Positions 5,873 through 32,653 of a stretch of DNA of 32,653 bases are shown piece by piece; the stretch's first letter is position 1, and every line of letters starts with the position of its first letter. The notes beneath the pieces are model-generated. The model did not search any database. It was given only the letters and a program-made list of their open reading frames with translations, and was not told the origin of the DNA. The DNA comes from Acidobacteriota bacterium (GTDB taxonomy: Bacteria > Acidobacteriota > Blastocatellia > Pyrinomonadales > Pyrinomonadaceae). The stretch spans positions 1 to 32,653 of the forward strand of contig JAVXVR010000589.1 in assembly GCA_032230165.1 (NCBI GenBank), written 5' to 3'. The translations under genes and the position numbers were made by a program.

Positions 5873-5990
5873 GACTTCAAAACCTCTTCGAGACTTCTTC
5901 GAGACCAGGGCGGGAGACGTTTCAGCTTTGCTATAAGAATGATAGTAAGGCTCGCCCGCACGGAGATGCAAGAAGTAGGATGCCTAAAAA

Positions 5991-6113
5991 CAGAGGTTAG
6001 ATGTCAGAGGTCAGAGGTTAGAGGTTAGAGGTTAGACTAAAAACAAAAGACGCGGCGCGCATTATTTCGCGCCGCGTCTCTACTAATCTCTAATCTCTAA
6101 CCTCTGACCTCTG
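5991..6113. repeat. Heptamer tandem repeats (GAGGTTA/GAGGTCA) arranged as a long imperfect palindrome around a terminator hairpin
   Basis: Left arm, about 5993-6034: GAGGTTA GATGTCA GAGGTCA GAGGTTA GAGGTTA GAGGTTA. Right arm, about 6084-6111: TAATCTC TAATCTC TAACCTC TGACCTC, the reverse complements of GAGATTA, GAGATTA, GAGGTTA and GAGGTCA. The arms flank the inner 12-bp hairpin at 6048-6079. Confidence 0.85.
6048..6079 (-). terminator. Rho-independent terminator of the 6117..6908 gene
   Basis: AGACGCGGCGCG, an 8-nt loop, then CGCGCCGCGTCT: a perfect 12-bp GC-rich stem. On the minus strand it is followed by TTTGTTTTT, the reverse complement of AAAAACAAA at about 6039-6047. Confidence 0.75.
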
Positions 6114-6116
6114 CTT

Positions 6117-11946: not shown

Positions 11947-12501
11947 ATGCACATCAAGCGAAACGCAAAGCGCCACGGGAGCGCCGCGCGCGCCTTAGCC
12001 CTCGCCTGCCTGCTGCTCTTTGGCGCGGGCGTGGCGTTCGGGCAAGACACGCAAGCGCCCGCCGCCGCCGCGGATCAGGAGTTTACCGTGACCGATCTAT
12101 TGAAGCTGCCGGGCAGAGTCGTCGGCAAAGGCAGCAACACGACGCCGAAGGGATTACACAAGCTGCGCTCTTACCGCGTTGAAGAGGTGGCGCTGCCGCA
12201 CATCACGAACGTCGAGCTGAAGGGTCAGCACGTCCCCGTCACGAAAGCTTTCCGCGTGACGATCACGGGCGGACCTTTCGCCGTGCGCGCGCTGCCGCCG
12301 GTCATCTGGCTCGACGACGTGGCGATAGGCTACGGCATCGAGAGCGAAGACCTCGACGCCATCACCGTCGTCACCTACGACGAGTCGCTGCTGCGCGACG
12401 GCGCGACGATCTATCTCTCCTACGGCGACAAGGAGAACAAGCAAGAGCGCACGGCGCTGCCGGAGAAACTGAAGCTCGGCACGAAAGGAGTCCAACCGTA
12501 A
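11947..12501 (+). CDS. Secreted protein of unknown function, translationally coupled to the downstream hydrolase
   Basis: 184 aa. AAGGAG lies about 10 nt upstream of the ATG. The signal peptide is ...ALALACLLLFGAGVAFGQ. Its stop overlaps the next start (TAATG at 12499-12503). Confidence 0.6.
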   Translation: MHIKRNAKRHGSAARALALACLLLFGAGVAFGQDTQAPAAAADQEFTVTDLLKLPGRVVGKGSNTTPKGLHKLRSYRVEEVALPHITNVELKGQHVPVTKAFRVTITGGPFAVRALPPVIWLDDVAIGYGIESEDLDAITVVTYDESLLRDGATIYLSYGDKENKQERTALPEKLKLGTKGVQP

Positions 12502-14240
12502 TGCGTAAGACCCTCACGACTTTCACCCTCGCACTGTTCTGCGTCCTCGCGTGCGCCGCCGCAGTGGCAGCGCAGACGCCCGACCCCGGCACGACCGGAG
12601 CTTACGCCGTCACGCGCGAAGAGTACGACTACGGCAACCTCGCCTTTCAGCCGAGCGGCTTCCCCTCGGCGGTCGAGCTGAAGGCTTCCGTTCACCATCC
12701 CACCGACATGACGGGCGGACCCTTTCCCCTAATCGTTTTCCTCCACGGCAGGCACGCCACCTGTTATCGCGGCACGACCGCAAGCTTGCGCTGGCCCTGC
12801 GCGGCTAACCAGCAGCCGATCCCAAGCTACCAGGGCTACGATTACATCGCGCAGACGCTCGCCAGCAACGGCTACATCGTCGTCTCCATCTCAGCCAACG
12901 GCATCAACGCCTTCGACAACAACGTCAACGATCTCGGCATGCAGGCGCGCGCCGAACTCATCGAGCGTCACCTCGATCAGTGGCGCACCTTCAACACGAC
13001 GGGCGCGTCGCCCTTCGGCACGAAGTTCGTCGGCAAGGTCGATCTCACGCGCGTCGGCACGATGGGTCACTCGCGCGGCGGCGAGGGCGTCGTCAAGCAC
13101 TACGTCTATAACGCGAGCCTCGGCTCGCCCTACACCGTCAAGGCGGTCTTCCCGCTCGCGCCCGTTGACTTCAACCGACCCGTCGTCAACAACGCCGCGC
13201 TCGGCGTCGTCCTCCCCTACTGCGACGGCGACGTGAGCGACAATCAGGGCATACACTTCTACGACGACGCGCGCTACAACGTCGCGGGCGACACCGGCGC
13301 GAAGCACACCATTCAGGTGATGGGCGCAAATCACAACTTCTACAACACCATCTGGACGCCCGGCATGTTCGCCGCGGGCACGGCGGACGACTGGAATTCG
13401 GGCGTCTCCGGCGGCACGAGCGATCCGCAGTGCGGCACGGTCGCGGGCAATCACCGTTTGACGAGCGCGCAGCAGCGCGGGACGGGTCTCGCTTACCTCT
13501 CCGCCTTCATGCGCGTCTATGTCGGCGGCGAGACGCAGTTCACGCCCATCCTGACGGGCGCGGCTGCGCCGCCCGCTTCGGCGCAGACGACCGATCTGCA
13601 CGTCTCCTATCACGCGCCCGACGCGGCGACGAAACGGCGCGACGTGAATCGCTTGCTCACGGCGACGAACCTGACGACCGACACGCTCGGCGGCGCGACG
13701 ACGCAAACGGGGCTCACGCCGCACGATCTCTGCGGCGGCAACTCGCCAGAGCCGCAGCACTGCCTCACGGCGGCGCAATCAACGAGCCGTCAACCGCACA
13801 CCGTGCCGAGCGCGCGTTCGTCTCTGCGGGGCTTGAGCCAATTGCGCACCGGCTGGGCGTCGGGCGGCGCGAGCTACACGAACGATCTGCCCACGGGGGC
13901 GCGTGACGTGAGCGCGTTTCAGGCTTTGCAGTTCCGCGTCAGCGTCAACTTCGACGATGCGCGCAACGCGAAAGCGCCGCAGAACTTCTCGGTCGTCCTC
14001 ACCGACGGCGCGGGCGCGCAATCGAGCGTGCGCGTCGGCGATGTGTCGAGCGTGCTCTTCTACCCGCCGGGCACGACAGGTCCCGTGCCGAAAGTGCTGC
14101 TCAACATGGTGCGCCTCCCGCTCACCTCTTTCACGGGCGTCAACCTGACGGACATCCGCTCCGTCAAGTTCCAGTTCGATCAGACCGCGCAGGGCGCGCT
14201 CCTCATCTCCGATCTGGCGTTCGCCTCCGCGCCGAACTGA
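12501..14240 (+). CDS. Secreted alpha/beta hydrolase (lipase/esterase or PAF-acetylhydrolase-like) with a C-terminal beta-sandwich-like domain
   Basis: Signal peptide MRKTLTTFTLALFCVLACAAAVAAQ. PLIVFLHGRHA is oxyanion-region-like. The nucleophile elbow is GTMGHSRGGEG (GxSxG). The candidate acid residue lies in PYCDGDVSD and the candidate His in MGANHNFYN. About 200 aa of unassigned sequence follow at the C-terminus. Confidence 0.7.
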   Translation: MRKTLTTFTLALFCVLACAAAVAAQTPDPGTTGAYAVTREEYDYGNLAFQPSGFPSAVELKASVHHPTDMTGGPFPLIVFLHGRHATCYRGTTASLRWPCAANQQPIPSYQGYDYIAQTLASNGYIVVSISANGINAFDNNVNDLGMQARAELIERHLDQWRTFNTTGASPFGTKFVGKVDLTRVGTMGHSRGGEGVVKHYVYNASLGSPYTVKAVFPLAPVDFNRPVVNNAALGVVLPYCDGDVSDNQGIHFYDDARYNVAGDTGAKHTIQVMGANHNFYNTIWTPGMFAAGTADDWNSGVSGGTSDPQCGTVAGNHRLTSAQQRGTGLAYLSAFMRVYVGGETQFTPILTGAAAPPASAQTTDLHVSYHAPDAATKRRDVNRLLTATNLTTDTLGGATTQTGLTPHDLCGGNSPEPQHCLTAAQSTSRQPHTVPSARSSLRGLSQLRTGWASGGASYTNDLPTGARDVSAFQALQFRVSVNFDDARNAKAPQNFSVVLTDGAGAQSSVRVGDVSSVLFYPPGTTGPVPKVLLNMVRLPLTSFTGVNLTDIRSVKFQFDQTAQGALLISDLAFASAPN

Positions 14241-14268: not shown

Positions 14269-14307
14269 CAGGGACGCTGGAGACATCTCCGGCGTCCCTG
14301 CTCTTTT
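14269..14307 (+). terminator. Rho-independent terminator of the hydrolase operon
   Basis: CAGGGACGC, a 14-nt loop, then GCGTCCCTG, followed by CTCTTTT. It lies 29 nt after the stop at 14240. Confidence 0.7.
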
Positions 14308-14573
14308 GGCAACCCGGCAAGTGTGAGCTTGAAGCCGATTCGACGAGCGATGAGACGACGCTGAGCTTGTCGTGATTCGCCGGGTATGTCTTCCGGCTAA
14401 TATTTCCTGTAGTATATGCGCCGTCGGTCTGACCCGTCCCGTTTTCTCTTCCTTGAACGTGAGATCGTAAACTAGAATCAGGAGGAGAGCTTTTACGCTC
14501 CGCTTTTGGTCAAGGCAGTCGGCATGACTACAAGCAAGATAATTCTTTGAACGAACAGGGTTAAGAAAAGCAG

Positions 14574-15392
14574 ATGACCCCAGAGACAGAAACCACTACC
14601 GCCGAGACTTCGCAAGCAGGCAAGTACGTCTATTGCATCATCGAAGCCGACGAGCCGCGCTCGTTCGGCGCGATGGGCATCGGCGCGCGCGGCGACGATG
14701 TTTACACCATCCACCACAACGGGCTCGCGGCGGTCGTCTCGAACACGCCGCTCGTCGTCTACGACCCGACGCGCGAGAACGTCTTCGCGCACGAGCAGGT
14801 GAACGAGACCGTGATGCGCGAGTTCACCGTGCTCCCGATGGCGTTCGGCGCGCTCTTCCGCACAGAGGACGACATCATCGAGCTGATTCGCGGCACATAC
14901 GACGCGCTGCGCGACGTGCTCGCCAAGATGGAAGGCAAGGTCGAGTTCGGTCTGAAGGTCAACTGGGATCGCGATCAGGTCATCGGGCAACTCGAAGAGG
15001 AGAACGACGAGATCCGTCACCTCAAAGAGCAGATCACCTCGCGCGCCACCGGCTCGACCTACTTCGCGCGCATGCAGCTCGGTCGCCTCATCGAGACGGC
15101 GCTCTCCGATCAGGCGGACGCCTACATCCGCGAGGTCTATTCCGCCTTGCGCGACACGGCGGTCGCCTCGCGCGCCAACAAGCCCATCGGGGATCGGATG
15201 ATCATGAACGCCGCGTTCCTCATCGAGCGCGACCGCGAGGCGGAGTTCGACGCGAAGGTCAAAGAGATCGCCGCCAAGTACGACAGCAAACTCTCATTTA
15301 AGTACACGGGTCCCTGGCCCCCCTATAATTTCGTCCACATCCGCCTGAAGCTGGAGCGCGGCGAGGGCGCGACGGAAGTCATCTCGAAGTAA
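14574..15392 (+). CDS. Gas vesicle protein, GvpL/GvpF family (paralog 1)
   Basis: 272 aa. Family hallmarks: YVYCIIEAD..., DDVYTIHHNGLAAVVSN, ENVFAHEQVNETVMREFTVLPMAFGALF, a coiled-coil middle region, and a C-terminal FKYTGPWPPYNFV. Confidence 0.9.
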   Translation: MTPETETTTAETSQAGKYVYCIIEADEPRSFGAMGIGARGDDVYTIHHNGLAAVVSNTPLVVYDPTRENVFAHEQVNETVMREFTVLPMAFGALFRTEDDIIELIRGTYDALRDVLAKMEGKVEFGLKVNWDRDQVIGQLEEENDEIRHLKEQITSRATGSTYFARMQLGRLIETALSDQADAYIREVYSALRDTAVASRANKPIGDRMIMNAAFLIERDREAEFDAKVKEIAAKYDSKLSFKYTGPWPPYNFVHIRLKLERGEGATEVISK

Positions 15393-15416
15393 ACGGGTCA
15401 CGCGGGAGTCGAAGCG

Positions 15417-15743
15417 ATGTTCTTCATAGACGATCTGCTGCTCGCGCCGGTCAACGGCTTCAAGTTCATCCTCGGTCAGATTCAGAAGATGGCTGATCAG
15501 GAGTTGAACGACGACTCGCTCATCAAGGAGCAACTCTTAGAGTTGCAGATGCGTCTCGAACTCGAAGAGATTTCCGAAGAGGATTATGCCGCGCAGGAGG
15601 CTGTGCTCTTCGCGCGCCTGCGCGTCATACGCGCGCACCAGCTCGACCTGCTCCATCAAGTCCACACCGCCGAGTCCACTTCCATCGTCATCGAAGCGGG
15701 CGGCGACGAGGGCGACTTCTGGGAGCCGGGCGGGGGGAAATAA
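15417..15743 (+). CDS. gvpG: Gas vesicle protein G
   Basis: 108 aa. MFFIDDLLLAPVNGFKFILGQIQKMADQELNDDSLIKEQLLELQMRLELEEISEEDYAAQEAVLFARL closely matches the GvpG pattern (MF..DDLLL.P...l.fv...i...A..E..D...i...L.eLq...e.GEI.EeEY...E..L..RL). GGGAG lies about 8 nt upstream of the ATG. Confidence 0.9.
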   Translation: MFFIDDLLLAPVNGFKFILGQIQKMADQELNDDSLIKEQLLELQMRLELEEISEEDYAAQEAVLFARLRVIRAHQLDLLHQVHTAESTSIVIEAGGDEGDFWEPGGGK

Positions 15744-15746
15744 GGC

Positions 15747-17954
15747 GTGGGCAAGAGGGCAGCCGGTGTGTCGGCGCGCGACGCAGACAAGACTTCGCCT
15801 GACGACGCACACGCGCCCGCCGCCGCAGCGTCGCCGCAGCCTCGCTACTATTTCTTCGGCGGCAAGGGCGGCGTCGGCAAAACGACCGCAGCCTGTGCCT
15901 TCGCGCTCAGCCTGCTCGATGCGTCGGACGAAGCGAGCGACGGCGAACAGATTCTCCTCTTCTCAACCGACCCCGCACACTCTCTCTCAGACAGCCTCGA
16001 CATAGATGTCGGCGACCGACTCACAGAGGTCGCACGCCGTGGCAAGTCGCGCCTCTTCGCCTACGAGATGGACGCTACTGCTGCGCTCGCGAAGTTTAAG
16101 GACGAACATCGCGGCGTGCTCGCAGAGATCGCCGAGCGCGGCACGCTCTTAGACGAGGGCGACATCAACGAGCTGCTCGATCTCTCTCTGCCCGGCATGG
16201 ACGAGGTGATGTCGCTCTTCGAGCTGAGCGAGCTTGACCGCACGAACAAGTTTGCGCGCGTCGTCGTTGACACCGCGCCGTCGGGTCACACGTCGCGGCT
16301 GCTCAAACTTCCGGAAGTCTTCTCGCACATGATCGGCGCGCTCGATCTCTTGGCGGAGAAGCACCGCTATATCGTCGCGCACTTCGCGCGGGGTCGGCGC
16401 GCGCGCGCCGACGAGGTTGATCTCTTCATCAACGATCTCACAGAGAGGATCGGGCGCGTGCGCTCGATGCTCCACGACGCGACGCGCGCTCGCTTCACGC
16501 TCGTCACGATCCCGGAAGCGATGGCGGTCGAAGAGACGGCGCGCTACTTCGCGTTGCTCAACGGTGAAGGCGTGCCCGTCACCGATCTGATCGTTAACCG
16601 TGTCGAGCGCACACACGCACACTGCCCTTACTGTCGCGCGCGCGCCGCGACGCAGAAGCCCTGGCTCGCACGCATCGCACGCGACTTCAAGGCACTGAGG
16701 CTGCGTAGCGTGCCACTCTTCGCCGAAGAGCTACACGGTCTCAACGCGCTCCGCGAGTTCGCGGACGCAATACGTGAGTTCGCCGTCGCGCGCGACGCGG
16801 CGTCTGCGGTCAGTGGTAAAGCGGCTTCGTCTAATTCGGTCGGTCAAGCAGCATCTTTGTCCGAAGACGAAAAGGGCGGCGCGCGCTTCACGCTCGAAGC
16901 GCGGCGGCTGCTCATCTTCGGCGGCAAAGGCGGCGTCGGCAAGACGACCGCCGCCTGCGCCTCCGCGCTCGCGCTTGCAGGAAGCGACCGGCGCGGGCGT
17001 GTGCTCGTCTTCTCGACCGATCCGGCGCACTCGCTCTCGGACAGTTTCGGTGAGCGCGTCGGCGAGTTGAAGCGCACTGTGGGCGGCATAAAGAATTTGG
17101 ACGCGATGGAGATCGATCCCGGGGCGCGCTTCGAGGAGTTGAAGGCGCGCTTCCGCGCGTGGACTGATGAGTTATTCGCGTCGCTTACCGCAGGCTCACG
17201 CTTCGAGGTGCAGTTCGACCGCGAGGCGATGCGCGAGCTGGTGGAGCTCGCGCCGCCGGGCATTGATGAGATCGCCGCGCTCAGCGTCATTAGCGATCTG
17301 GTGGATGAGAAGACCTACCAGACCATCGTGCTCGACACCGCGCCGACCGGGCATCTCATACGCTTCCTTGAGCTGCCGGAAGTTGCGCTCTCATGGGTGC
17401 GTGCTTTTCTCAAGCTGCTGCTCAAGTATAAGAACGTGGTGAAGGCTGGCAGCGTCGCGGAAGAACTGATCGCGCTCTCGAAGAGCATCAAGCGGATCAT
17501 CGCACTACTCACTGACGCAGACGCCTGTGAGTTTGTCGGCGTCGCGATCCCGGAACGCATGAGCCTCGAAGAGACGGCGCGGCTCGCGACGACGCTCGAA
17601 CGCCTGCGTGTGCCGATGCGTCGGCTGCTCGTCAACTCAATCGTGCCGGAGCGTGCCGCCGCGTCGTGCGACTTCTGCCGTGCGCGGCGTGACGCGCAGC
17701 TCGTCGTCCTCGACGAATTCCGTCGAAGACTCGGTCGAAAGATCGAGTTGTTCGTCGCCCCGCAGCAGCCCGAAGAGATACGCGGCGTCGAGCGACTGCG
17801 CGAACACTTCGCGGGCTGGCGCGAGTTGAACGCGCCGCCGCGTGCGAGTGCGGGCGCGAAGAAGAAGTTGAGCGCGAAGAGCGCGGGGAAGAAGAAGGCG
17901 AAGGCTGCGACGGCGAGCGCGCAGAAGCGCGTGCGGGAGGCGGAGAGAAGATGA
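15747..17954 (+). CDS. Internally duplicated Get3/ArsA-family P-loop ATPase (two complete ATPase halves, each with a CxxC)
   Basis: 735 aa with a GTG start 4 nt after the gvpG stop.
- Half 1: FFGGKGGVGKTT (aa 36-47), LLFSTDPAHSLSDSL, VVDTAPSGHTSRLLKLPE, LIVNRVERTHAHCPYCRARAATQ (C293/C296).
- Half 2: IFGGKGGVGKTT (aa 390-401), LVFSTDPAHSLSDSF, VLDTAPTGHLIRFLELPE, LLVNSIVPERAAASCDFCRARRDAQ (C641/C644).
- The tail is K/A-rich and basic.
- The stop overlaps the next gene's ATG (ATGA at 17951-17954). Confidence 0.85.
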   Translation: MGKRAAGVSARDADKTSPDDAHAPAAAASPQPRYYFFGGKGGVGKTTAACAFALSLLDASDEASDGEQILLFSTDPAHSLSDSLDIDVGDRLTEVARRGKSRLFAYEMDATAALAKFKDEHRGVLAEIAERGTLLDEGDINELLDLSLPGMDEVMSLFELSELDRTNKFARVVVDTAPSGHTSRLLKLPEVFSHMIGALDLLAEKHRYIVAHFARGRRARADEVDLFINDLTERIGRVRSMLHDATRARFTLVTIPEAMAVEETARYFALLNGEGVPVTDLIVNRVERTHAHCPYCRARAATQKPWLARIARDFKALRLRSVPLFAEELHGLNALREFADAIREFAVARDAASAVSGKAASSNSVGQAASLSEDEKGGARFTLEARRLLIFGGKGGVGKTTAACASALALAGSDRRGRVLVFSTDPAHSLSDSFGERVGELKRTVGGIKNLDAMEIDPGARFEELKARFRAWTDELFASLTAGSRFEVQFDREAMRELVELAPPGIDEIAALSVISDLVDEKTYQTIVLDTAPTGHLIRFLELPEVALSWVRAFLKLLLKYKNVVKAGSVAEELIALSKSIKRIIALLTDADACEFVGVAIPERMSLEETARLATTLERLRVPMRRLLVNSIVPERAAASCDFCRARRDAQLVVLDEFRRRLGRKIELFVAPQQPEEIRGVERLREHFAGWRELNAPPRASAGAKKKLSAKSAGKKKAKAATASAQKRVREAERR

Positions 17955-18790
17955 GCGCGCGCCGCAACAAGAAAGATAAAGTCGAATCGGCGCGTGGATT
18001 TTACGTCTATTGCGTGGGCGCGCGCGAAGAGCTTGCGCGTCTGTTCGAGGGAGAACTGCCCGAAGCCATCGAGCCCGACGCGCCGCTCGAAATGCTGGCG
18101 GGCGATGAACTAGCCGCTGTCGCGAGCAGTGTCCCACTGTCGGATTACGACGAAGAGAACTTGACCGCGCGGCTCACAGACGCGGAATGGATCGCCGTCA
18201 GAGCCATGCGTCACGAGCGCGTCGTCGAGCGCTTCGCGCGGCGCGCAGGCGTTGTGCCCTTGCGCTTCGGCACGATCTACCTGCGTCGCGAAGGCGTCGC
18301 GGGGATGCTCGCTGAGAAGCAAGGAGAGTTGCGCGCGGCGGTCGAGCGTTTACGCGGCAAAGAAGAATGGAGCGTCAACGTCTATTGGGATCGCGCGAAG
18401 TTGTTGGCATCAATCGTCGAGCTGAGCCCGCGCCTGCGTGAGTTAAGCAAGCGTGCGGGTTCGGTCTCACCGGGTCAGGCGTATCTCATGCGCAAACAGG
18501 TGGACGCGCTGCGCGCCGACGAAGCGCGCGAGGAGTTGAGCCGCGCGACGCGAGAGATCGAGCGCGCTCTCTCAGAGGCGAGCGCGGCGAGCGTGCGTCT
18601 GCAAGTGAGCAAGGCGGAAGCGGCGGAGCGGCGCGAGCTGTCGGCGAAGTTCGCTTTCCTCGTCGAGCGCGCGCGCTTCAAGGAGTTTCGTGCGGCGGCT
18701 GAGCGTCTCGCGCGTGAGCGCGCCGACGCGGGGCTGCGACTTGAGCTGGCGGGACCTCTGCCCGCTTACAGTTTCGTCGCGGAGTCGTAG
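17951..18790 (+). CDS. Gas vesicle protein, GvpL/GvpF family (paralog 2)
   Basis: 279 aa. Family hallmarks: FYVYCVGAREE, LAAVASSVPLSDY, RAMRHERVVERFARRAGVVPLRFGTIY, EWSVNVYWD, and a C-terminal LAGPLPAYSFV. A GGAGG-rich SD region lies upstream, inside the preceding gene. Confidence 0.85.
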   Translation: MSARRNKKDKVESARGFYVYCVGAREELARLFEGELPEAIEPDAPLEMLAGDELAAVASSVPLSDYDEENLTARLTDAEWIAVRAMRHERVVERFARRAGVVPLRFGTIYLRREGVAGMLAEKQGELRAAVERLRGKEEWSVNVYWDRAKLLASIVELSPRLRELSKRAGSVSPGQAYLMRKQVDALRADEAREELSRATREIERALSEASAASVRLQVSKAEAAERRELSAKFAFLVERARFKEFRAAAERLARERADAGLRLELAGPLPAYSFVAES

Positions 18791-18851
18791 AGCGGAGTGG
18801 CGGCGCGGGAGCAGTGCCCGTCGAAAGTTTGAGCACGCATCGAAAGTTTGC

Positions 18852-19106
18852 ATGGCGGACGAAATTTTACAGCAGCCGGAACCACTCGATCTGCTTGAGC
18901 ACAGCGACCTGTCTCTGCTGGAGACGCTCGACCACGTGCTCGCGCGCGGGATCGTCATCGCGGGCGAGATTACGATCTCGGTTGCCGACGTCGATCTCAT
19001 CTTCATGGGCTTGAACGTCCTGCTGACCTCGACCGAGACCGCACGCGAAGTGCTCAACCGACGCGCCGACGCGCTGGCGGCGGGCGAGTCGAAAGGCGAC
19101 GACTGA
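18852..19106 (+). CDS. Small GvpA/J/M/S-family gas vesicle protein (GvpS/GvpM-like)
   Basis: The in-frame ATG at 18852 within track ORF 18690..19106 gives 84 aa. LLETLDHVLARGIVIAGEITISVADVDLIFMGLNVLLTSTETAREV matches the gas-vesicle structural-protein core (L.dvLdr.L..G.vi.g...isva.v.L....l...l.s.eta). Confidence 0.8.
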   Translation: MADEILQQPEPLDLLEHSDLSLLETLDHVLARGIVIAGEITISVADVDLIFMGLNVLLTSTETAREVLNRRADALAAGESKGDD

Positions 19107-19142
19107 GCGCGCTTGGCGTGCCGCTCGCGACTCTCGTTTTCG

Positions 19143-19859
19143 ATGAACGTCTATGCTTACTGTTTGAGCGATGAGATCGCAGCCGACGCGCTGGGAGCGG
19201 TCACAGGCGTCGGCGGGGCGACGACGCGGCTGCTGTGGCGCGACGGTGTCGCGGCGGTCGTGAGTGATTTCGACGGAGACGCGGTCGCCGTCACGCGCGA
19301 GAACGTGCTGGCGCACGAGCGCGTCGTCGGGGCTATGCTTGCGCGCGCGACGCCGCTGCCGTTTCGGTTCGGCACGGTGATGGGCGAGGAAAGATTGATG
19401 AGCTACGTCGCCGCGCAGAGCGAAGCGTTGAAGGCGCAACTCGAACGCGTGCGCGGCTGCGTCGAGATGAGCGTCAAAGTGATCTGGAAGGCGGAGGCGG
19501 TCGGCGTTGAGTCGTCGCCGGAACATGCGGCGGAGTCGGCGGGGTCGGCGGAATCGGGCGCGGGCACGGCTTTCTTGCTGGCGAAGCGGCGGGAGATTTT
19601 TGGCGAGGAGGCGAAGGCTGTGCGCGCGAAGGAGATCACCGAGTGGCTGGCGGGCTGGCTCGCGGGCGCGGTGCGGGATGCGCGGGTCGAGGTTAATCCG
19701 CACGGTGCGATGGTTGTGTCCGCCGCATACTTGGTCGAGCGTGGGCAACTCGCAGAGTACCGTGAGCGTCTGCGGCTCGCGCGGGAGGAGCGACGCGATT
19801 TACATTTCTTGACGAGCGGTGCGTGGTCGCCTTACAGTTTCACGAGTGCTCGCGCTTGA
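19143..19859 (+). CDS. Gas vesicle protein, GvpL/GvpF family (paralog 3)
   Basis: The in-frame ATG at 19143 within track ORF 19113..19859 gives 238 aa. Family hallmarks: MNVYAYCLSDE, GVAAVVSDF, ENVLAHERVVGAMLARATPLPFRFGTVM, VEMSVKVIWK, and a C-terminal LTSGAWSPYSFT. Confidence 0.85.
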   Translation: MNVYAYCLSDEIAADALGAVTGVGGATTRLLWRDGVAAVVSDFDGDAVAVTRENVLAHERVVGAMLARATPLPFRFGTVMGEERLMSYVAAQSEALKAQLERVRGCVEMSVKVIWKAEAVGVESSPEHAAESAGSAESGAGTAFLLAKRREIFGEEAKAVRAKEITEWLAGWLAGAVRDARVEVNPHGAMVVSAAYLVERGQLAEYRERLRLAREERRDLHFLTSGAWSPYSFTSARA

Positions 19860-19861
19860 GT

Positions 19862-20251
19862 GTGGGCACGGCTCGGAGTAACCTAGTGAAGCCTTCCCCT
19901 GACTCCCCCAGTCCGGTTGAGCCGGAGGTGGAGACCGCGCACGCCGCGGAGTTCATCGAAGAACTGCGGCGCGTGTCGGACACTCTGCCGCCGCGCATCA
20001 ACATAGATGCGCAGTCCGTCGAACAAGGTCTGGCAAAGCTCGTCTTGACGCTCATCGAACTCATCCGTCGGCTGTTGGAAAAACAGGCTGTCAGACGGAT
20101 GGAGGGCGGCGGTCTCTCGCCGGAGCAAGTGGAGGAGTTGGGTCTCGCCCTGATGAAGCTGGAAGGGAAGATGCAGGAGTTGAAGGCGCAGTTCGGACTG
20201 GCTGAGGAAGACCTCAACCTCGATCTCGGACCCGTCGGTCGTTTGATCTGA
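19862..20251 (+). CDS. gvpK: Gas vesicle protein K
   Basis: Track ORF 19823..20251. RINIDAQSVEQGLAKLVLTLIELIRRLLEKQAVRRMEGGGLSPEQVEELGLALMKLEGKMQELKAQFGLAEEDLNLDLGPVGRL matches the GvpK signature. The start is uncertain: GTG 19862 and GTG 19886 lie just past the upstream stop, while 19823 would overlap gvpF/L by 37 nt. Confidence 0.85.
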   Translation: MGTARSNLVKPSPDSPSPVEPEVETAHAAEFIEELRRVSDTLPPRINIDAQSVEQGLAKLVLTLIELIRRLLEKQAVRRMEGGGLSPEQVEELGLALMKLEGKMQELKAQFGLAEEDLNLDLGPVGRLI

Positions 20252-20351
20252 AGGGCGGGGCGGTTATAAAACAACTTTCGTGGTGGTGACCGGAGCGCGC
20301 CGTGCTTTTCTCAGCACAGCAATCGCCACACACTGTTCGGAGGGGCGTAGA

Positions 20352-20747
20352 TTGTCGAGCGAGCGAACGAGTTTGATTACGGCGCGACCGCCGGGTCTGG
20401 TTGACGTGCTCGACCGGATTCTGGACAAGGGCTTGGTGATTGCGGGCGACATCAAGGTGTCGCTCGCCAACGTCGAGCTGCTGACCTTGCAGATACGTCT
20501 GCTCGTCTGCTCGATTGATAAAGCCGAGCAGATCGGTCTCAACTGGTGGCGCTACGACTCGAACCTGACGACGCGCGCCGAGCGCGCCGAATCCGAAAAC
20601 ACCGAGTTGCGCGAGCGACTCGCAGAGCTTGAGCGCGAGGTGCGGCGTTTGAACACGCCCGCCGACTCTGCGGCGAAAGCCCCGCGCTCGACAGCAACGC
20701 GCGCGCGCGTTGGCGGCGCGACGAAGAAGACAAGGAAGCGCGGCTGA
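20352..20747 (+). CDS. gvpJ: Gas vesicle protein J-like (GvpA-family core plus a coiled-coil/basic C-terminal extension)
   Basis: Track ORF 20280..20747. I prefer TTG 20352, which is preceded by GGAGGGG about 7 nt upstream. The core is LVDVLDRILDKGLVIAGDIKVSLANVELLTLQIRLLVCSIDKAEQIGLNWW. A C-terminal ELRERLAELEREVRRL segment and a basic tail follow. Confidence 0.85.
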   Translation: MSSERTSLITARPPGLVDVLDRILDKGLVIAGDIKVSLANVELLTLQIRLLVCSIDKAEQIGLNWWRYDSNLTTRAERAESENTELRERLAELEREVRRLNTPADSAAKAPRSTATRARVGGATKKTRKRG

Positions 20748-20858
20748 GCCGTCTCGCGCGCTGCAAAGCCGGACGGGCAAGCCGTAAGCCCGCGCCGCAA
20801 AGCAAGACCTCGCGTTGTGTTTAGTCAATCTTAATCTGGGAAAGAGGACTCAAAGCAC

Positions 20859-21161
20859 ATGGCTGTTGAAAGAGCGCCCGGCGGAACAAGTCTCATCGAC
20901 GTGCTGGATCGCGTGCTGGACAAGGGCATCGTGATTGATGCCTGGGTGCGCATCTCTCTCGTCGGCATCGACCTGATCACAATCGAGGCGCGCGTCGTCG
21001 TCGCTTCGATTGACACTTATCTGAAGTACGCCGAGGCGGTCGGTCTGACGCCCGCCGTCTCGCGCCCGGCGCTCACGCCCGGAGCCGCCGAGTCGTTCGA
21101 CGACGAGACGACGACGACAACCACACGTCGCCGTTCCACCTCCGACGTTGACCGCGGCTAA
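20859..21161 (+). CDS. gvpA: Major gas vesicle structural protein GvpA, with a ~30-aa C-terminal extension
   Basis: [64 protein letters not shown] is near-identical in pattern to canonical GvpA (..[53 protein letters not shown]). AAGAGGA lies upstream of the ATG. The extra tail is [36 protein letters not shown]. Confidence 0.93.
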
Positions 21162-21243
21162 AGCGCGCGAACTCGTCAAGCGCGCGCGCGCGTCGTCGCC
21201 GCGCGTGTGGCGTTGACCTGAAAGCCCGTCCTGCCCGTCTGTC

Positions 21244-23415
21244 ATGGGGAACGTTCCGGCACAACTCGCCCCGCCGCACCTGCCGCATCTGGCGGAGGAT
21301 GACGCGCTCGATCTGCGCCTGCGTCAGTACGACTTCTTCATGGAGACGACGACGCAGATGCTCGCCACGTCGCGACTCCAAGAGCGTCTGCTGCTCGCGG
21401 CGGAGGCGATCGTTTCGGGTCTCGGCTACCGTCAATCGGCAATCGCGATGTTGGACGAGCGCAGTGGCACGCTGCGCGTGCGCGCGACCGCCGGATTCCC
21501 CGAAGGCGCGGACGGGGGGCGCGTAATGCCGCTCGATTCAGGCGCGGCGTGCGTGAGGGTGGTGCATGAGGGGCGACCCCTCTGGGTTTCCATGCAGGAG
21601 GACGAAGCCTCGCGCGCGCTGCTTGGCGGGATGGGGTGGGAGCAGGACGTGTTGGCGCTCCCGCTCTTCGGCTTGCAGGAGGCAAGCCCGAAGCGCGCGT
21701 GGGAACTCGCCCTCAAGCCGGGCTTCGCCGACAGCTCTCTGGGTCTGGAACGCTCCTCGTGTCTCGGCGTGCTCTACGTCGGCGCGCGCGAGGAGATGGT
21801 TGACGACTTCTCCCGAAGATTCCTCGCGCGGCTCTCCGACCGCTTCGGTCTGATCATCGCGCTCGGCATCCAGCACGAGCGACTGAAGGCGAACGTCGAG
21901 AAGTTGCAGCGCGAGCGGCAGTGGGTCGAGTCGATCATGAAGTCGGTCGCAGACCCCATCGTGCTCACCAATCTCGACAACGAAATCTTGCTGCAAAACC
22001 GGCGCGCCGAAGAGTTGTTCAGCGGCTCGAACGACGCGGGCGAGGGCAAGCGCCGCGCGCTGAAGATGAACGATCTGCTCTTCTCCGCGTATCTGTCGAG
22101 CGCGACGGTCTCATCCTCTTCGGTCGTGCAGCGCGACATCACGCTCGTCGATCCCATCTTCGGCTCCGACATACACTTCGAGGTCATCTCGACACCCGCC
22201 TTGAACGCGCGCGGCGAGCGGCTCGGACTCGTCTCGATCTTCCGCGACGTGACCGATCTGCGCGAGGCGCACGAAGAGCTGGCGCGCAACTTCACAAAGT
22301 TGCAGCACGCTGAGTCTGAAGCGCGACGCGAGCGCGACCGCCTCGATCTGATCATCGAGAACGTCGGTCACCCCGTCGTCGTCTGCGACGCTTCGGGCAA
22401 CTTCATACTTTTTAACCATCGCGCCGAGTTGTTGTTTCAGCAGGACGAAGCGACGACGATGCGTGCGGCGACCGCCGTGCGCGCCAACTCCGTCAAGCTC
22501 ACGTCGTTCATCTCGGCGCTCGCCTCCGCCTCGGAGACCGACAGGCAGGCGGAGATCGAACTCATTGATCCGGAATCGGGGCAGGGGCTGCCGATGGAGA
22601 TCACTGCGGGCGAGGTGATGGACGCGCAGGGGCAGGTGACGGCGGTCGTCTCCGTGCTGCACGATCTCACCGAGATACGCGAGCTTGAGCGACGCCGCGT
22701 CGAGCAGCAACTCTTCGAGTCGGAGAAGCTGGCGGCGGTCGGTCGTCTCGCCGCCTCCATCGCGCACGAGGTGAACAACCCGCTCGAAGCGATCAAGAAC
22801 TCGCTTTATTTGATGGAGACGACGCGCGAGGCGGAGAAGAACGCGCGCTTTCTTGAGATCGCGCGCAAGGAGACCGAGCGCGTCTCGCACATCATCAGCC
22901 AGATGCTGGGTTTCGCGCGCAGATCGGGCGAAGTCGAGTGGGCGGACGTGAACCAACTGCTCGAAGAGACGCTCGTGCTCGTCGAGAAGAAGATGAAGCA
23001 GTCGGGCGTGCGCATCGTGCGCGAACTCGACGCGCGTGTGCCGCGTGTGCGCGCCCGCGCCGACCAGTTGCGGCAGGTCTTCCTCAACCTGATCCTCAAC
23101 GCGCAGCAAGCCATCAAGGGCGGCGGCGAGATTCGCGTCGCGACTTCGCCCTACGAGCCTTCAATTCAGCCCTCCGTCCTCGTCCAGATCGGCGACACGG
23201 GCGTCGGCATCAGCGAGGACGAGATGGCGCACATCTTCGAGCCTTTCTACTCGACGCGGAAGAAGGGCACGGGGCTGGGGCTCTGGGTGACGCACGACAT
23301 CGTCCGCCAGCACGGCGGGCGCATCGAGGTGTTGAGCGAGAAGGGGCGCGGCACGACCTTCCAGATCATCCTGCTCGTCGAGTCGCCGGTGCTGGAAGAA
23401 GAGAGCAAAAAATAG
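21244..23415 (+). CDS. Cytoplasmic sensor histidine kinase (GAF - PAS - PAS - HisKA - HATPase_c)
   Basis: 723 aa with no obvious TM segment. The N-terminus is GAF-like (LLLAAEAIVSGLGYRQSAIAMLDE...). Two PAS-like segments follow (SIMKSVADPIVLTNLDNEILLQN; LIIENVGHPVVVCDASGNFILFN). The H-box is LAASIAHEVNNPLEAI, the N-box FLNLILNAQQAI, G1 QIGDTGVGI and G2 KKGTGLGLWV. The start is uncertain (ATG 21244 or 21331). Confidence 0.85.
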   Translation: MGNVPAQLAPPHLPHLAEDDALDLRLRQYDFFMETTTQMLATSRLQERLLLAAEAIVSGLGYRQSAIAMLDERSGTLRVRATAGFPEGADGGRVMPLDSGAACVRVVHEGRPLWVSMQEDEASRALLGGMGWEQDVLALPLFGLQEASPKRAWELALKPGFADSSLGLERSSCLGVLYVGAREEMVDDFSRRFLARLSDRFGLIIALGIQHERLKANVEKLQRERQWVESIMKSVADPIVLTNLDNEILLQNRRAEELFSGSNDAGEGKRRALKMNDLLFSAYLSSATVSSSSVVQRDITLVDPIFGSDIHFEVISTPALNARGERLGLVSIFRDVTDLREAHEELARNFTKLQHAESEARRERDRLDLIIENVGHPVVVCDASGNFILFNHRAELLFQQDEATTMRAATAVRANSVKLTSFISALASASETDRQAEIELIDPESGQGLPMEITAGEVMDAQGQVTAVVSVLHDLTEIRELERRRVEQQLFESEKLAAVGRLAASIAHEVNNPLEAIKNSLYLMETTREAEKNARFLEIARKETERVSHIISQMLGFARRSGEVEWADVNQLLEETLVLVEKKMKQSGVRIVRELDARVPRVRARADQLRQVFLNLILNAQQAIKGGGEIRVATSPYEPSIQPSVLVQIGDTGVGISEDEMAHIFEPFYSTRKKGTGLGLWVTHDIVRQHGGRIEVLSEKGRGTTFQIILLVESPVLEEESKK

Positions 23416-23436
23416 AGCGGCAGCCAGCTTCAAGTC

Positions 23437-25086
23437 ATGGCTTCACCTAACGTCCGAGAGCGCGAAACGCAGACGAGCGCGGAGACGGGCGCGCCCGCCA
23501 CGCAGGGCGCGCGCCTGCTCGTCGTGGACGACGAGGAGAGCCTGCGCATCACGACCGCCGCCATCCTCGAAGCCGAAGGGTACGAGGTCGAGACCGCGGC
23601 GAGCGGCGAAGAGGCGATCGCGCAACTCGAAAAGTCCGAGTACGATCTCGTCCTCACCGATCTACACATGGAGGGCGGCGACGGGCTCTCCGTGCTCGGC
23701 GAGATTCGCCGTCGCGCCCCGTTCACCATCTCCGTCGTCCTGACGGGCTTCGCCTCGGTCGAGTCGGCGATTGCCGCGCTCCAACAGGGCGCATACGACT
23801 ACCTGATCAAGCCCTGCGACATCGACGAGATGAAGCACACGATCAGGCGCGGCGTCGAGCACCGGCGGCTGATGCTCGCCGAGCATCGTGCGCGGACGAA
23901 TCTCGAACGGCTCAATCGCGAACTCGAAAGCCGCGTCGAAGAGCGCACCGCCGAGCTAACACAGCTCAACGAGGAACTGGCGGAGGCGAACCGCGTCAAA
24001 GACATCTTTCTCGCCACGCTCTCGCACGAGCTGCGCACGCCGCTCACTCCGATCATCGGTTGGATCAGATTGCTGCGCGGCGAAAACCTCATGAGTCCGC
24101 TCGCCGCTCAGGCGCTCGACACCATCGAGCGCAACGCGCAGCTCCAGTCGCGCCTCATCGACGATCTCCTCGACATCTCGCGCATCGCCACGGGCAAGCT
24201 CTCCTTCGAGCCTGTGCCTTCCGATCTGAACGAGGCGGTTCTGTCGGCGGTCGAGACGGTGCGCGGCGCGGCGGCAGCGCGCGAAGTCAATCTCGACGTG
24301 GCGCTTGCGCCCACGCCGCTCACGGTCTCAGGCGAGCCCGTGCGCATCCAGCAGATCGTGTGGAATCTGCTCTCGAATGCCATCAAGTTCAGCGAGCCGT
24401 CGGGGCGCGTGAAAGTTTCGACTGAGGGCACTGAGGCGGAGGCGCGCGTCATCGTCGAGGACTCAGGCGTCGGCATTGACTCGGAGTTCTTACCTTACGT
24501 CTTCGACCGCTTCCGCCAGCAGGACGGCTCGACGACGCGACGCCACGGCGGTCTAGGATTAGGACTCGCCATCGTCCACGCGCTCACGAAAATGCACGGA
24601 GGGCACGTCGCGGCGGCGTCGGAAGGCACTGGGCGCGGCGCGCGTTTCACGCTGACGCTCCCGCGCCTCGCCTATACGGGCGATGCGGGCGAAGTCGAGG
24701 AGCAGGCGGCGTCCGCCATCACGAACCGCCGGATCATGATCGTGGATGATTCGCCCGACACTCTAGAGCTGCTCTGCGCGATCTTCATCCAGAAGGGTTG
24801 TCAGGTCGTCGCCGCCCGCTCAGCCGAAGAGGCTTTGAAGTCGATCTCGGAAGAGCGCCCGCACATCCTCATCTCGGATATCGGGATGCCGGGCATGGAC
24901 GGCTACGAGTTGCTCGCGCAGATGCGCCGTCTGCCGGGCATGGAAGCTGTGCCGGCGATTGCCATCTCCGGCTATGCGATGGAAGAGGATCGCGAGCAAG
25001 CTTTCCACGCGGGCTTCGCCGCGCACCTCGCCAAGCCCATTGATATGGACGAACTCTTCGCGGTCATCAAGCGTGTCGCGCCATAA
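23437..25086 (+). CDS. Hybrid histidine kinase (REC - coiled coil - HisKA - HATPase_c - REC)
   Basis: 549 aa. REC1 motifs are LLVVDDEESL...DLVLTDLHMEGGDG...YLIKP. The H-box is FLATLSHELRTPLTPIIGW, the N-box VWNLLSNAIKF, G1 VEDSGVGI and G2 HGGLGLGLAIV. REC2 motifs are IMIVDDSPDT...ILISDIGMPGMDG...HLAKP. Confidence 0.9.
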   Translation: MASPNVRERETQTSAETGAPATQGARLLVVDDEESLRITTAAILEAEGYEVETAASGEEAIAQLEKSEYDLVLTDLHMEGGDGLSVLGEIRRRAPFTISVVLTGFASVESAIAALQQGAYDYLIKPCDIDEMKHTIRRGVEHRRLMLAEHRARTNLERLNRELESRVEERTAELTQLNEELAEANRVKDIFLATLSHELRTPLTPIIGWIRLLRGENLMSPLAAQALDTIERNAQLQSRLIDDLLDISRIATGKLSFEPVPSDLNEAVLSAVETVRGAAAAREVNLDVALAPTPLTVSGEPVRIQQIVWNLLSNAIKFSEPSGRVKVSTEGTEAEARVIVEDSGVGIDSEFLPYVFDRFRQQDGSTTRRHGGLGLGLAIVHALTKMHGGHVAAASEGTGRGARFTLTLPRLAYTGDAGEVEEQAASAITNRRIMIVDDSPDTLELLCAIFIQKGCQVVAARSAEEALKSISEERPHILISDIGMPGMDGYELLAQMRRLPGMEAVPAIAISGYAMEEDREQAFHAGFAAHLAKPIDMDELFAVIKRVAP

Positions 25087-32457: not shown

Positions 32458-32653
32458 CTTGCGGTTCGTACCTCCGTCATTCGCCGATCGGTCAACGCAC
32501 TCTCGCAAACTCACCGACGTTCGACGAATCCGGGGCGCGGACGAGAAACCCCACAGTACCGGCGCCAGGATGATAACAGTTTCCCCGAGTCCTGTCGCAA
32601 GCGGGAGGTGGCGGCGGCACTCGCCCGTGATGAACGAGACGCCCCTTCTTGAT

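What the first reader, a model, noticed from the sequence alone, without database searches (positions are those of the whole stretch)
14574..21161. Compact nine-gene gas-vesicle cluster with non-canonical composition and order, in a probable acidobacterial genome
All nine ORFs are on the plus strand with short gaps or overlaps. The order is GvpF/L-1, GvpG, double Get3/ArsA ATPase, GvpF/L-2, GvpS/M-like, GvpF/L-3, GvpK, GvpJ, GvpA.

Three features are notable:
- The major structural gene gvpA is the last gene rather than the first.
- There are three GvpF/L paralogs.
- There are three GvpA-family proteins, but no recognisable GvpN, GvpC, GvpO, GvpV/W, Hsp20-type GvpP/H or other accessory genes in the window.

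The cluster is bounded by a clean terminator at about 14269-14307 and a 330-nt lower-GC leader on the left. On the right it runs without an obvious terminator into a two-component system. The host assignment rests only on the neighbouring Acidobacteria-type VWFA protein and the GC-rich composition.
Basis: partly seen in the sequence, partly recalled or inferred. Interest (0 to 1): 0.65.

Follow-up and report, generated by a model that had tools for sequence, protein, structure and literature searches.

The report
GvpN-less gas-vesicle operon with Get3-like ATPase
This is a real gas-vesicle gene cluster from a soil acidobacterium (family Pyrinomonadaceae); it lacks the usual GvpN motor, and its only ATPase is a fused, Get3-like protein whose relatives in the genomes sampled lie almost only inside gas-vesicle clusters and have never been tested experimentally.

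Summary
All nine + strand ORFs at 14574-21161 hit the proposed families well above Pfam thresholds: three GvpF/L, GvpG, GvpK, three GvpA-family proteins and a tandem ArsA/Get3-fold ATPase. No GvpN, GvpO, GvpC or Hsp20 gene lies in the 32.6-kb window.

The interpretation needs four corrections.
1. The architecture is not a one-off. The same gene order occurs in 57 species-level Blastocatellia/Pyrinomonadaceae genomes. None has GvpN, Hsp20 or a CDC48-like ATPase within 10 kb.
2. Where contigs allow, two sensor kinases (21244-25086) follow gvpA, so the conserved unit has 11 genes.
3. The core order F-G-L-S-K-J matches Bacillus megaterium. The ATPase sits after G, a third F after S, and gvpA at the end.
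4. The ATPase is a gas-vesicle-linked family found in many phyla, usually beside GvpN. Castillo and Saier noted this link from gene context in 2010.

Here it looks like Get3/TRC40, not arsenite-pump ArsA. It has CxxC in both halves, Get3-like helical insertions and no arsenite-binding cysteines.

The best reading is a streamlined, kinase-linked gas-vesicle operon whose only energy-using factor is a Get3-like chaperone for hydrophobic Gvp proteins. That mechanism is inferred. I rate it a new variant of a known kind, of moderate interest.

The parts
14269..14310 (+). Intrinsic-terminator-like hairpin (14-bp stem, then CTCTTTTGG) that ends the upstream hydrolase gene (12501-14240). It marks the left boundary.
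   Evidence: sequence
14311..14573 (+). Leader with lower GC (50% over 14308-14573, against 64% for the window). No convincing sigma-70 match and no Rfam family. It cannot be aligned across the clade.
14574..15392 (+). gvpF/L paralogue 1, in the GvpF position. It is the most conserved accessory gene (median 84% identity across the clade).
15417..15743 (+). gvpG. It has a hydrophobic N-terminal helix, a long helix and a clade-specific C-terminal motif (HTAES.S.VIE.GGD..FWEPG).
15747..17954 (+). Tandem (pseudo-dimeric) Get3/TRC40-like ATPase of the ArsA fold, 735 aa.
- Walker A GGKGGVGKT at residues 38 and 392.
- TDPAHS at 74 and 424.
- DTAP[ST]GH at 175 and 530.
- CxxC at 293 and 641.
- Disordered linker at 347-376 and a Lys/Ala-rich tail.
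17951..18790 (+). gvpF/L paralogue 2, in the GvpL position. Its start overlaps the ATPase stop by 4 nt (ATGA).
18852..19106 (+). Small GvpA-family gene, GvpS/M-like by size and position. The mechanical ORF starts at 18690; ATG 18852 is preferred.
19143..19859 (+). gvpF/L paralogue 3. The ORF starts at TTG 19113; ATG 19143 is preferred. It is the least conserved gene (median 49%) and is absent in two clade loci.
19886..20251 (+). gvpK. The ORF starts at 19823; GTG 19886, with GGAG 8 nt upstream, is preferred.
20352..20747 (+). GvpJ-like GvpA-family gene with a coiled-coil and basic C-terminal extension. The ORF starts at 20280; TTG 20352, with GGAGG 7 nt upstream, is preferred.
20859..21161 (+). 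gvpA, the major shell protein (100 aa: a 71-aa canonical core plus a 29-aa tail). A purine-rich Shine-Dalgarno sequence conserved across the clade lies upstream.
21244..23415 (+). Sensor histidine kinase (PAS, HisKA, HATPase_c). It follows gvpA directly in the orthologous loci.
23437..25086 (+). Hybrid kinase (REC, HisKA, HATPase_c, REC). It is the last gene of the conserved 11-gene block. No DNA-binding output domain lies nearby.

Best explanation
The region is a functional, lineage-typical gas-vesicle operon of soil Blastocatellia/Pyrinomonadaceae.

**Proposed roles**
- GvpA builds the shell.
- The GvpJ-like and GvpS/M-like paralogues act as minor seeding or tip components.
- GvpF, GvpL, the third GvpF/L paralogue, GvpG and GvpK form the nucleation and chaperoning complex.
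- The fused Get3/TRC40-like ATPase is a dedicated gas-vesicle assembly factor.

**Proposed mechanism for the ATPase.** Like Get3, it uses ATP binding and hydrolysis to close and open a composite helical groove. The groove shields hydrophobic segments of GvpA-family proteins (or GvpG) and hands them to the growing vesicle, working with the adjacent GvpF and GvpG. This clade lacks GvpN, Hsp20 and the CDC48-like AAA+ protein that accompany the ATPase in other phyla. That leaves it as the only energy-using factor in the cluster. The two downstream sensor kinases probably couple expression or assembly to an environmental signal.

**Shown:** the family identities, the motifs, the synteny and the gene-neighbourhood specificity.

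**Inferred:** that vesicles are actually made, the chaperone mechanism, any substitution for GvpN, and the regulatory role of the kinases.
For: **Family identities:**. GvpA is close to shell proteins of known structure.

**Conservation in the clade.** The identical order is found in 57 species-level Blastocatellia-type loci. Of these, 35 are complete and identical; most of the rest are cut short by contig ends or have split ORFs. Median identities are GvpA 82%, F1 84% and the ATPase 64%, with intact frames. ATPase motifs are invariant or nearly so in 30 orthologues.

**Link between the ATPase and gvp genes**
- Nearly every tandem relative (35-69% identity) with enough flanking sequence lies among gvp genes. 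This holds across Terriglobia, Bryobacterales, Verrucomicrobiota, Desulfobacterota, Chloroflexota, Planctomycetota, Methylococcaceae, Doudnabacteria and archaea. One Thermoleophilia contig (L028) is the exception.
- GvpG lies immediately upstream in 82 of 94 loci.
- Among 66 informative GvpN-type clusters, 42 contain the ATPase between G and the next gvpA-family gene.

**Get3 character of the ATPase**
- The best sequence matches in the PDB are Chlamydomonas ArsA1 and archaeal and yeast Get3/TRC40. E. coli ArsA scores lower.
- Each half is 30-34% identical to Get3/TRC40, against 22-24% to ArsA.
- CxxC is present in both halves. Both halves carry helical insertions relative to a true ArsA.

**Absence of other ATPases and chaperones.** GvpN, Hsp20 and CDC48-like genes lie next to the ATPase in other phyla. 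None is found within 10 kb in any Blastocatellia-type locus or in the window.

**Kinases.** Both are syntenic in the 40 other clade loci whose sequence holds both gvpA and the second kinase, while the outer flanks differ.

**Literature.** GvpF and GvpG are proposed chaperones of GvpA, and how GvpA is inserted is an open question (PMC11445434).
Against: - No organism with this cluster has been cultured, and no gas vesicles have been reported for the family.
- In B. megaterium, Serratia and haloarchaea, loss of GvpN leaves only small bicones. A cluster without GvpN may therefore make only tiny vesicles.
- GvpN or GvpO could be encoded elsewhere in the genome. My scans for this were capped and inconclusive.
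- In most other phyla the ATPase co-occurs with GvpN. It is therefore not simply an alternative to GvpN.
- No client binding, ATPase activity or zinc site has been shown.
- The AlphaFold model has lower confidence in the helical subdomains (mostly pLDDT 55-75). The groove itself was not assessed.
Confidence: 0.6

Rival explanations
1. The cluster is not self-sufficient. GvpN, and perhaps GvpO or Hsp20, is encoded at another locus, and the Get3-like ATPase is only the same optional helper that it is in other phyla.
For: In 42 of 66 informative GvpN-type clusters the ATPase sits alongside GvpN, so the two are not mutually exclusive. One Blastocatellia MAG (L117) carries the full Hsp20-CDC48-F-F-A-N-F-G-ATPase-a-K-a form. 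The whole-genome check could not be completed.
Against: In every GvpN-containing cluster examined, gvpN lies inside the cluster, next to gvpA and F-G. None of the 57 Blastocatellia-type loci has it within 10 kb. No Pyrinomonadaceae record appeared among the best 80 GvpN loci or the 120 best GvpN proteins, although both lists were capped. Actinomycete clusters also lack gvpN.
Confidence: 0.2
2. The cluster is retained but no longer serves buoyancy. It makes only bicone-sized particles or is expressed rarely, as is debated for Streptomyces. The ATPase and kinases then serve a stress-related role for these particles.
For: The habitat is soil, no cultured representative exists and no vesicles have been reported. 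Mutants lacking GvpN make only bicones in the model systems. Soil actinomycetes also carry GvpN-less clusters.
Against: All nine genes are conserved with intact frames across 57 species. GvpA is about 75% identical to a shell protein that forms full cylinders. A conserved strong ribosome-binding site precedes gvpA.
Confidence: 0.12
3. The tandem ATPase does not act as a chaperone in the cluster. It is either an arsenite-pump ArsA that happens to sit there, or a ParA/MinD-like positioning ATPase that spaces vesicles in the cell.
For: It has the ArsA_ATPase Pfam domain and tandem architecture. The best full-length structural matches are ArsA. It belongs to the same P-loop class as ParA and MinD, with weak hits to both.
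Against: All three arsenite-binding cysteine columns of a genuine ArsA are replaced. The window holds no arsB, acr3, arsD or arsR gene. The ATPase is linked to gvp genes in about 100 loci across phyla. ParA and MinD scores are far below their cutoffs, and the Get3-specific CxxC and helical insertions are present.
Confidence: 0.06

Closest known systems
Bacillus megaterium gvp cluster (gvpAPQBRNFGLSKJTU; essential set B, N, F, G, L, S, K, J)
   Same: The families match and the core order F-G-L-S-K-J is the same. It too has two minor GvpA paralogues (S, J) beside the shell protein, and it is a soil bacterium.
   Different: The window has no GvpN, R/O, P, Q, T or U. A tandem Get3-like ATPase is inserted between G and L, and a third GvpF/L between S and K. 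The shell gene is last instead of first, and two sensor kinases are appended.
Actinomycete clusters (Streptomyces coelicolor gvpOAFG-JLSK)
   Same: They are soil bacteria, they lack GvpN and GvpC, and their GvpA carries a C-terminal extension.
   Different: They have GvpO, gvpA near the front and no ArsA/Get3-like ATPase. The order of J, L, S and K differs.
Gas-vesicle clusters with a tandem ArsA homologue in other phyla (Castillo and Saier 2010, clusters 4 and 6; here typically Hsp20-CDC48-like-F-F-A-N-F-G-ATPase-a-K-a)
   Same: The ATPase family is the same (35-41% identity), and so is the F-G-ATPase sub-block.
   Different: Those clusters keep GvpN next to gvpA and usually also Hsp20 and a CDC48-like AAA+ ATPase. 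The Blastocatellia form has none of these, has gvpA at the end and carries the kinase pair.
Get3/TRC40, and the fused Chlamydomonas ArsA1 (chaperones that target tail-anchored membrane proteins)
   Same: Shared features are the deviant Walker A, the TDPAH catalytic loop, DTAPxGH, the CxxC motif and the helical insertions. Each half is 30-34% identical. ArsA1 is likewise a fused pseudo-dimer and is the best sequence match in the PDB.
   Different: No Get1, Get2, Get4 or Get5 partners are present, and no lipid membrane is the target. The presumed clients are gas-vesicle proteins. CrArsA1 lacks CxxC in the aligned half. The helices are not methionine-rich: 0-2 Met per segment.
ArsA arsenite-pump ATPase (E. 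coli R773, L. ferriphilum)
   Same: It shares the tandem two-domain architecture and overall fold. It gives the top full-length Foldseek matches, with TM about 0.6 normalised to the query.
   Different: Identity is only 22-30%. The three metalloid-binding cysteines are absent and CxxC is present. There is no ars operon context.

Membership tests
Gas-vesicle (gvp) gene cluster | GvpA shell protein (PF00741; GvpA-level model) | tested here: met
   NF006874 scores 118 bits against a cutoff of 100. The protein is colinear with 8gbs and 7r1c.
Gas-vesicle (gvp) gene cluster | Core accessory genes GvpF, GvpL, GvpG and GvpK, plus two minor GvpA paralogues (J and M/S) | tested here: met
   All score above the Pfam gathering thresholds. 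The names J and S/M rest on size and position. They do not reach NCBIfam equivalog cutoffs.
Gas-vesicle (gvp) gene cluster | GvpN AAA+ ATPase, listed as conserved in gvp clusters by Pfeifer 2022 | tested here: not met
   No hit in the window or in any Blastocatellia-type locus within 10 kb. Other locations in the genome were not excluded.
Gas-vesicle (gvp) gene cluster | GvpC outer scaffold protein, or GvpO | tested here: not met
   No Pfam hit in any substantial ORF of the window. Divergent analogues cannot be excluded.
Gas-vesicle (gvp) gene cluster | Production of gas-filled vesicles | not testable with these tools
   This needs expression followed by electron microscopy or a pressure-collapse assay.
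Get3/TRC40 ATPases | Deviant Walker A, catalytic Asp in TDPAH, and switch II DTAPxGH | tested here: met
   All are present in both halves. They are invariant across phyla.
Get3/TRC40 ATPases | CxxC zinc motif at the dimer interface | tested here: met
   CPYC at residue 293 and CDFC at 641. The second aligns with CDFC of M. jannaschii Get3. The motif is absent from a true ArsA. Zinc binding itself was not tested.
Get3/TRC40 ATPases | Helical-subdomain insertion relative to ArsA (the TRC40 insert) forming a hydrophobic client groove | tested here: inconclusive
   Insertions of about 16 and 19 residues occur at the matching places in both halves. The segments are 43-55% hydrophobic. Groove geometry could not be examined, and model confidence is lower there.
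Get3/TRC40 ATPases | Homodimer of chains of about 330-350 aa working with Get1/2 or WRB/CAML receptors | tested here: not met
   The protein is a fused pseudo-dimer of 735 aa. No receptor homologue was seen among the neighbours. It works like Get3 at most. It is a separate gvp-linked subfamily.
ArsA arsenite-pump ATPase | Three metalloid-binding cysteines (E. coli C113, C172, C422) | tested here: not met
   In the alignment with the Comamonas arsD-arsA-acr3 ArsA, the three Cys columns hold Leu/Ser, an insertion and Gly. The window protein has no Cys between residues 51-292 or 405-593.
ArsA arsenite-pump ATPase | Operon context with arsB or acr3, arsD and arsR | tested here: not met
   None is present in the window. 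TIGR04291 scores 221 bits against a cutoff of 650.

The most novel reading that the evidence does not exclude
The fused Get3-like ATPase is the energy source for gas-vesicle growth in this lineage and replaces GvpN. It would work as a Get3-type targeting chaperone that delivers hydrophobic GvpA-family subunits to a protein-only, gas-filled organelle rather than to a lipid membrane. GvpF and GvpG would act as its loading or receiving partners. That would be a prokaryotic, membrane-free version of the tail-anchor insertion logic, and a second, independent solution to the problem of inserting GvpA.
Probability: 0.25. Interest if true: 0.75.

Novelty: new variant of a known kind. Interest (0 to 1): 0.45.

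Why it matters
How the extremely hydrophobic GvpA is kept soluble and inserted into a growing shell is an open question. So is why an ATPase is needed for this (PMC11445434).

This clade offers a natural experiment. It has a conserved nine-gene cluster with the universal core but no GvpN, no Hsp20 and no CDC48-like ATPase. It keeps one Get3-like ATPase whose family is linked to gas-vesicle clusters across many phyla. In the literature I could search, that ATPase has never been tested.

Expressing the cluster with and without the ATPase would show directly whether it can power vesicle assembly. The result matters for gas-vesicle biology and for engineering compact acoustic reporter clusters. 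It also bears on the ecology of abundant soil Acidobacteriota, where buoyancy organelles are unexpected.

Tried and rejected
- **Rfam scan of the window:** no family matched, so there is no known riboswitch in the leader.
- **Promoter scan:** nothing in the leader. The two hits in the region are at chance level.
- **Alignment of leaders across the clade:** not alignable. Only one subclade shows a TTGC-N17/18-TATTAT motif, which the window lacks.
- **gvpA upstream spacer:** only the ribosome-binding site is conserved.
- **Hairpin after gvpA in the window:** no better than shuffled sequence, z = +0.7.
- **Is the 11-gene block mobile?** None of the window's flanking genes occurs near any orthologous cluster. 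Flanks are conserved within subclades, and no mobility genes are consistently present. I rejected this as unsupported.
- **Do GvpG proteins differ between clusters with and without the ATPase?** No systematic difference appeared.
- **GvpN elsewhere in Pyrinomonadaceae:** The protein search returned 120 near-equidistant GvpN proteins, almost none with organism names. Both are inconclusive.
- **Structure search:** it could not separate ArsA from Get3, because the tandem ArsA chains win on length. The alignment decided the question.
- **Exact-protein look-up:** it found only a 4.4-kb JGI contig and added no context.
Full report
**1.

The nine + strand ORFs between 14574 and 21161 all match the proposed families far above the curated thresholds:
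- GvpL_GvpF three times (263, 188 and 163 bits).
- GvpG (72 bits) and GvpK (116 bits).
- The Gas_vesicle domain three times (51, 61 and 63 bits).
- A 735-aa protein with two ArsA_ATPase domains (445 bits).

NCBIfam places the last ORF at GvpA level (118 bits against a cutoff of 100). It places the ATPase in the GET3/ArsA/TRC40 subfamily and far below the true-ArsA cutoffs. GvpA aligns colinearly over residues 1-71 with Anabaena GvpA (8gbs) and with B. megaterium GvpB (7r1c). It then carries a 29-aa tail. GvpF1 matches the solved GvpF structures.

Orthologue N-termini and ribosome-binding sites favour later starts for four genes: S at 18852, F3 at 19143, K at 19886 and J at 20352.

The boundary features also check out:
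- A terminator-like hairpin lies at 14269-14310.
- The leader is 50% GC against 64% for the window.
- No terminator-like site separates gvpA from the next genes.

No other ORF of substance in the window belongs to a gas-vesicle family. The neighbours are a PETase-like hydrolase, a Schlafen/AlbA_2 protein, folK, an RND efflux system, a beta-propeller protein and several unknowns. I found no VWA-domain protein.

**2. Host and distribution**

A scan of one genome per GTDB species with the ATPase gave 34 loci. A second scan with an alignment of diverse relatives gave 80 loci. Of these, 57 are Blastocatellia-type, meaning GvpF1 is more than 70% identical to the window's. Nearly all are labelled Pyrinomonadaceae, Blastocatellia or Acidobacteriota, and all are MAGs (metagenome-assembled genomes).
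- In 35 of them the complete order F-G-ATPase-F-a-F-K-a-a is identical to the window.
- Most of the others are cut by contig ends or have split ORFs.
- In the 40 whose sequence holds both gvpA and the second kinase, the same two sensor kinases follow it.
- None of the window's outer flanking genes is found near any of these clusters. Flanks are shared only within subclades.

The conserved unit is therefore 11 genes, 14574-25086. The protein database holds more than 120 further clusters of this ATPase at 62-80% identity, mostly from soil-type metagenomes. The host call of Acidobacteriota, class Blastocatellia, probably Pyrinomonadaceae, is well supported. The exact architecture is typical of the lineage.

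**3. How the cluster compares with known ones**

Pfeifer's 2022 review lists B. megaterium as gvpAPQBRNFGLSKJTU and S. coelicolor as gvpOAFG-JLSK. The window's core order F-G-L-S-K-J is the B. megaterium order. The differences are the ATPase after G, a third F/L paralogue after S, and gvpA moved to the end.

Three GvpF paralogues are also known in Serratia. The gene set covers A, F, G, J, K, L and M/S. That is seven of the eight genes essential in haloarchaea (O is missing) and seven of the eight essential in B. megaterium (N is missing). In the model systems GvpN is needed to elongate bicones into cylinders.

**4. The ATPase is the most informative gene**

Nearly every tandem relative at 35-69% identity with enough flanking sequence lies inside a gvp cluster (one Thermoleophilia contig, L028, is the exception). 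This holds in Terriglobia, Bryobacterales, Verrucomicrobiota, Desulfobacterota, Chloroflexota, Planctomycetota, Methylococcaceae, a Doudnabacteria MAG and archaea. The usual layout there is Hsp20, a CDC48-like AAA+ ATPase, F, F, A, N, F, G, ATPase, a, K, a.
- GvpG lies directly upstream of the ATPase in 82 of 94 loci.
- Starting instead from GvpN, 42 of 66 informative clusters carry the ATPase between G and the next GvpA-family gene, and 24 do not.

The ATPase is thus an optional accessory factor that is strictly linked to gas-vesicle genes and normally coexists with GvpN. In the Blastocatellia-type loci no GvpN, Hsp20 or CDC48-like gene lies within 10 kb. One Blastocatellia MAG (L117) still has the full form. 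The streamlined form therefore looks derived.

**5. Get3-like, not ArsA-like**

- The best sequence matches in the PDB are the fused Chlamydomonas ArsA1, then M. jannaschii Get3, then other Get3/TRC40 proteins. E. coli ArsA scores lower.
- The AlphaFold model (pLDDT 75.9, pTM 0.76) superposes on tandem ArsA chains over its full length. Each half, however, is 30-34% identical to archaeal and yeast Get3, against 22-24% to ArsA.
- Both halves carry an intact Walker A, the TDPAH catalytic loop and DTAPxGH.
- I aligned the protein with a genuine ArsA from a Comamonas arsD-arsA-acr3 operon. The three arsenite-binding cysteine columns of ArsA are replaced. ArsA lacks the CxxC motifs that the gas-vesicle ATPase has in both halves. 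The gas-vesicle ATPase also has extra helical segments in both halves, at the place where Get3 carries its client-groove insertion.
- That the ArsA cysteines are C113, C172 and C422, and that CxxC and the insertion are Get3 hallmarks, is established knowledge that I recalled. The columns themselves are shown.

**6. Mechanism**

Shown: the family identities, the motifs, the conservation and the neighbourhood specificity.

Inferred: the ATPase acts as an ATP-driven holdase or targeting factor for hydrophobic Gvp segments, together with GvpF and GvpG. These two are the proposed GvpA chaperones in B. megaterium, and their genes form the conserved F-G-ATPase block.

Also inferred: in this clade it is the only energy-using factor, and the kinase pair provides regulation. 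The kinases have no DNA-binding output nearby.

The rivals are:
- GvpN is encoded elsewhere in the genome.
- The cluster gives a bicone-only or non-buoyancy product.
- The ATPase acts as an arsenite pump or a positioning ATPase.

**7. Prior knowledge and novelty**

Castillo and Saier (2010, PMC2963123) reported two-domain ArsA homologues inside gvp clusters of four phyla. One was an acidobacterium with two L/F genes plus J, K and M. They proposed a role in biogenesis and noted the missing ArsA cysteines.
- No paper in the searchable library combines gas vesicles with Get3.
- Only one combines them with tail-anchored proteins, and it is unrelated to this ATPase.
- No listed paper pairing gas vesicles with Pyrinomonadaceae or Blastocatellia turned up.

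New here are the Blastocatellia-wide architecture without GvpN, Hsp20 or CDC48, with gvpA last and a kinase pair attached, and the Get3-type diagnosis of the ATPase.

I rate this a new variant of a known kind, of moderate interest (0.45). A specialist would not be shocked, but it offers a clean test system for an open assembly question.

Noticed in passing
window 5980-6125 (- strand); also L001:8373-8450, L012, L010, L020, L056 and L004 (several spacers): Inverted pairs of tandem heptamer arrays form very long hairpins. In the window, AGAGGTT x6.4 at 5992-6036 pairs with its complement at 6083-6113. The pair flanks a GC-rich terminator hairpin with a U-tract (-73.8 kcal/mol, z = -10.8). In most orthologous loci such an element fills the spacer between gvpA and the first kinase (z -6 to -13). 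The heptamer differs from species to species. The elements also occur in other spacers, so they are a genome-wide intergenic element. They resemble cyanobacterial STRR heptamer repeats (a comparison from memory).
   Followed up: partly
L022:8805-9347, L010:8991-9506, L008:856-1233: In three clade loci an extra ORF (125-180 aa) sits between gvpF1 and gvpG. It encodes a coiled-coil protein with tandem 15-aa repeats (for example SDKRLTRIEEMAERN). It might be a GvpC-like outer scaffold. The window has no such ORF; its F1-G gap is 24 nt.
   Followed up: no
L002:8704-9489; L012:8908-9290; L006:11955-12527: Other lineage-specific insertions lie inside the cluster. They are a transposase-like ORF, two small overlapping ORFs that could be a toxin-antitoxin pair, and a 190-aa ORF with an N-terminal hydrophobic segment. 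All three labels are my reading of the translated sequence; none was scanned against a family library. The operon evidently tolerates insertions at the F1|G and ATPase|F2 junctions.
   Followed up: no
L026, L027, L029, L030, L032, L058, L067, L070, L094 (ATPase region): In several clade loci the tandem ATPase is split, in or near the inter-domain linker, into two ORFs in different frames. These could be real two-gene heterodimer versions, pseudogenes or assembly frameshifts.
   Followed up: no
L025:6090-7295 and L025:4001-6211: In a Chloroflexaceae gvp cluster one GvpF/L paralogue is fused to a DnaJ J-domain. A CDC48-type double AAA+ ATPase also lies inside the cluster, and CDC48-like genes recur in most ATPase-containing clusters outside Blastocatellia. 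Both point to extensive chaperone recruitment in these clusters.
   Followed up: partly
L031 (Woesearchaeota MAG), L092 (Doudnabacteria MAG): gvp clusters that include the tandem ATPase occur in MAGs labelled Woesearchaeota and Doudnabacteria. These lineages are generally regarded as small-celled and episymbiotic (my background knowledge), so buoyancy organelles would be unexpected there. Contig binning was not checked.
   Followed up: no
window 15417-15743 (GvpG C-terminus) and 17838-17954 (ATPase tail): Blastocatellia-type GvpG ends in a conserved motif, HTAE(S/T)SS.VIE.GGD..GGFWEPG, that is absent from GvpG of other phyla. The ATPase ends in a Lys/Ala-rich tail modelled with low confidence, whose length varies among orthologues.
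   Followed up: partly
window 3203-4528 (+), 757-1275 (-), 26205-32514 (-): Unrelated neighbours are a Schlafen/AlbA_2-domain protein, folK (HPPK) and a three-gene RND efflux system (outer-membrane factor, membrane-fusion protein, AcrB-like pump). None is syntenic with the gvp block in other genomes.
   Followed up: no
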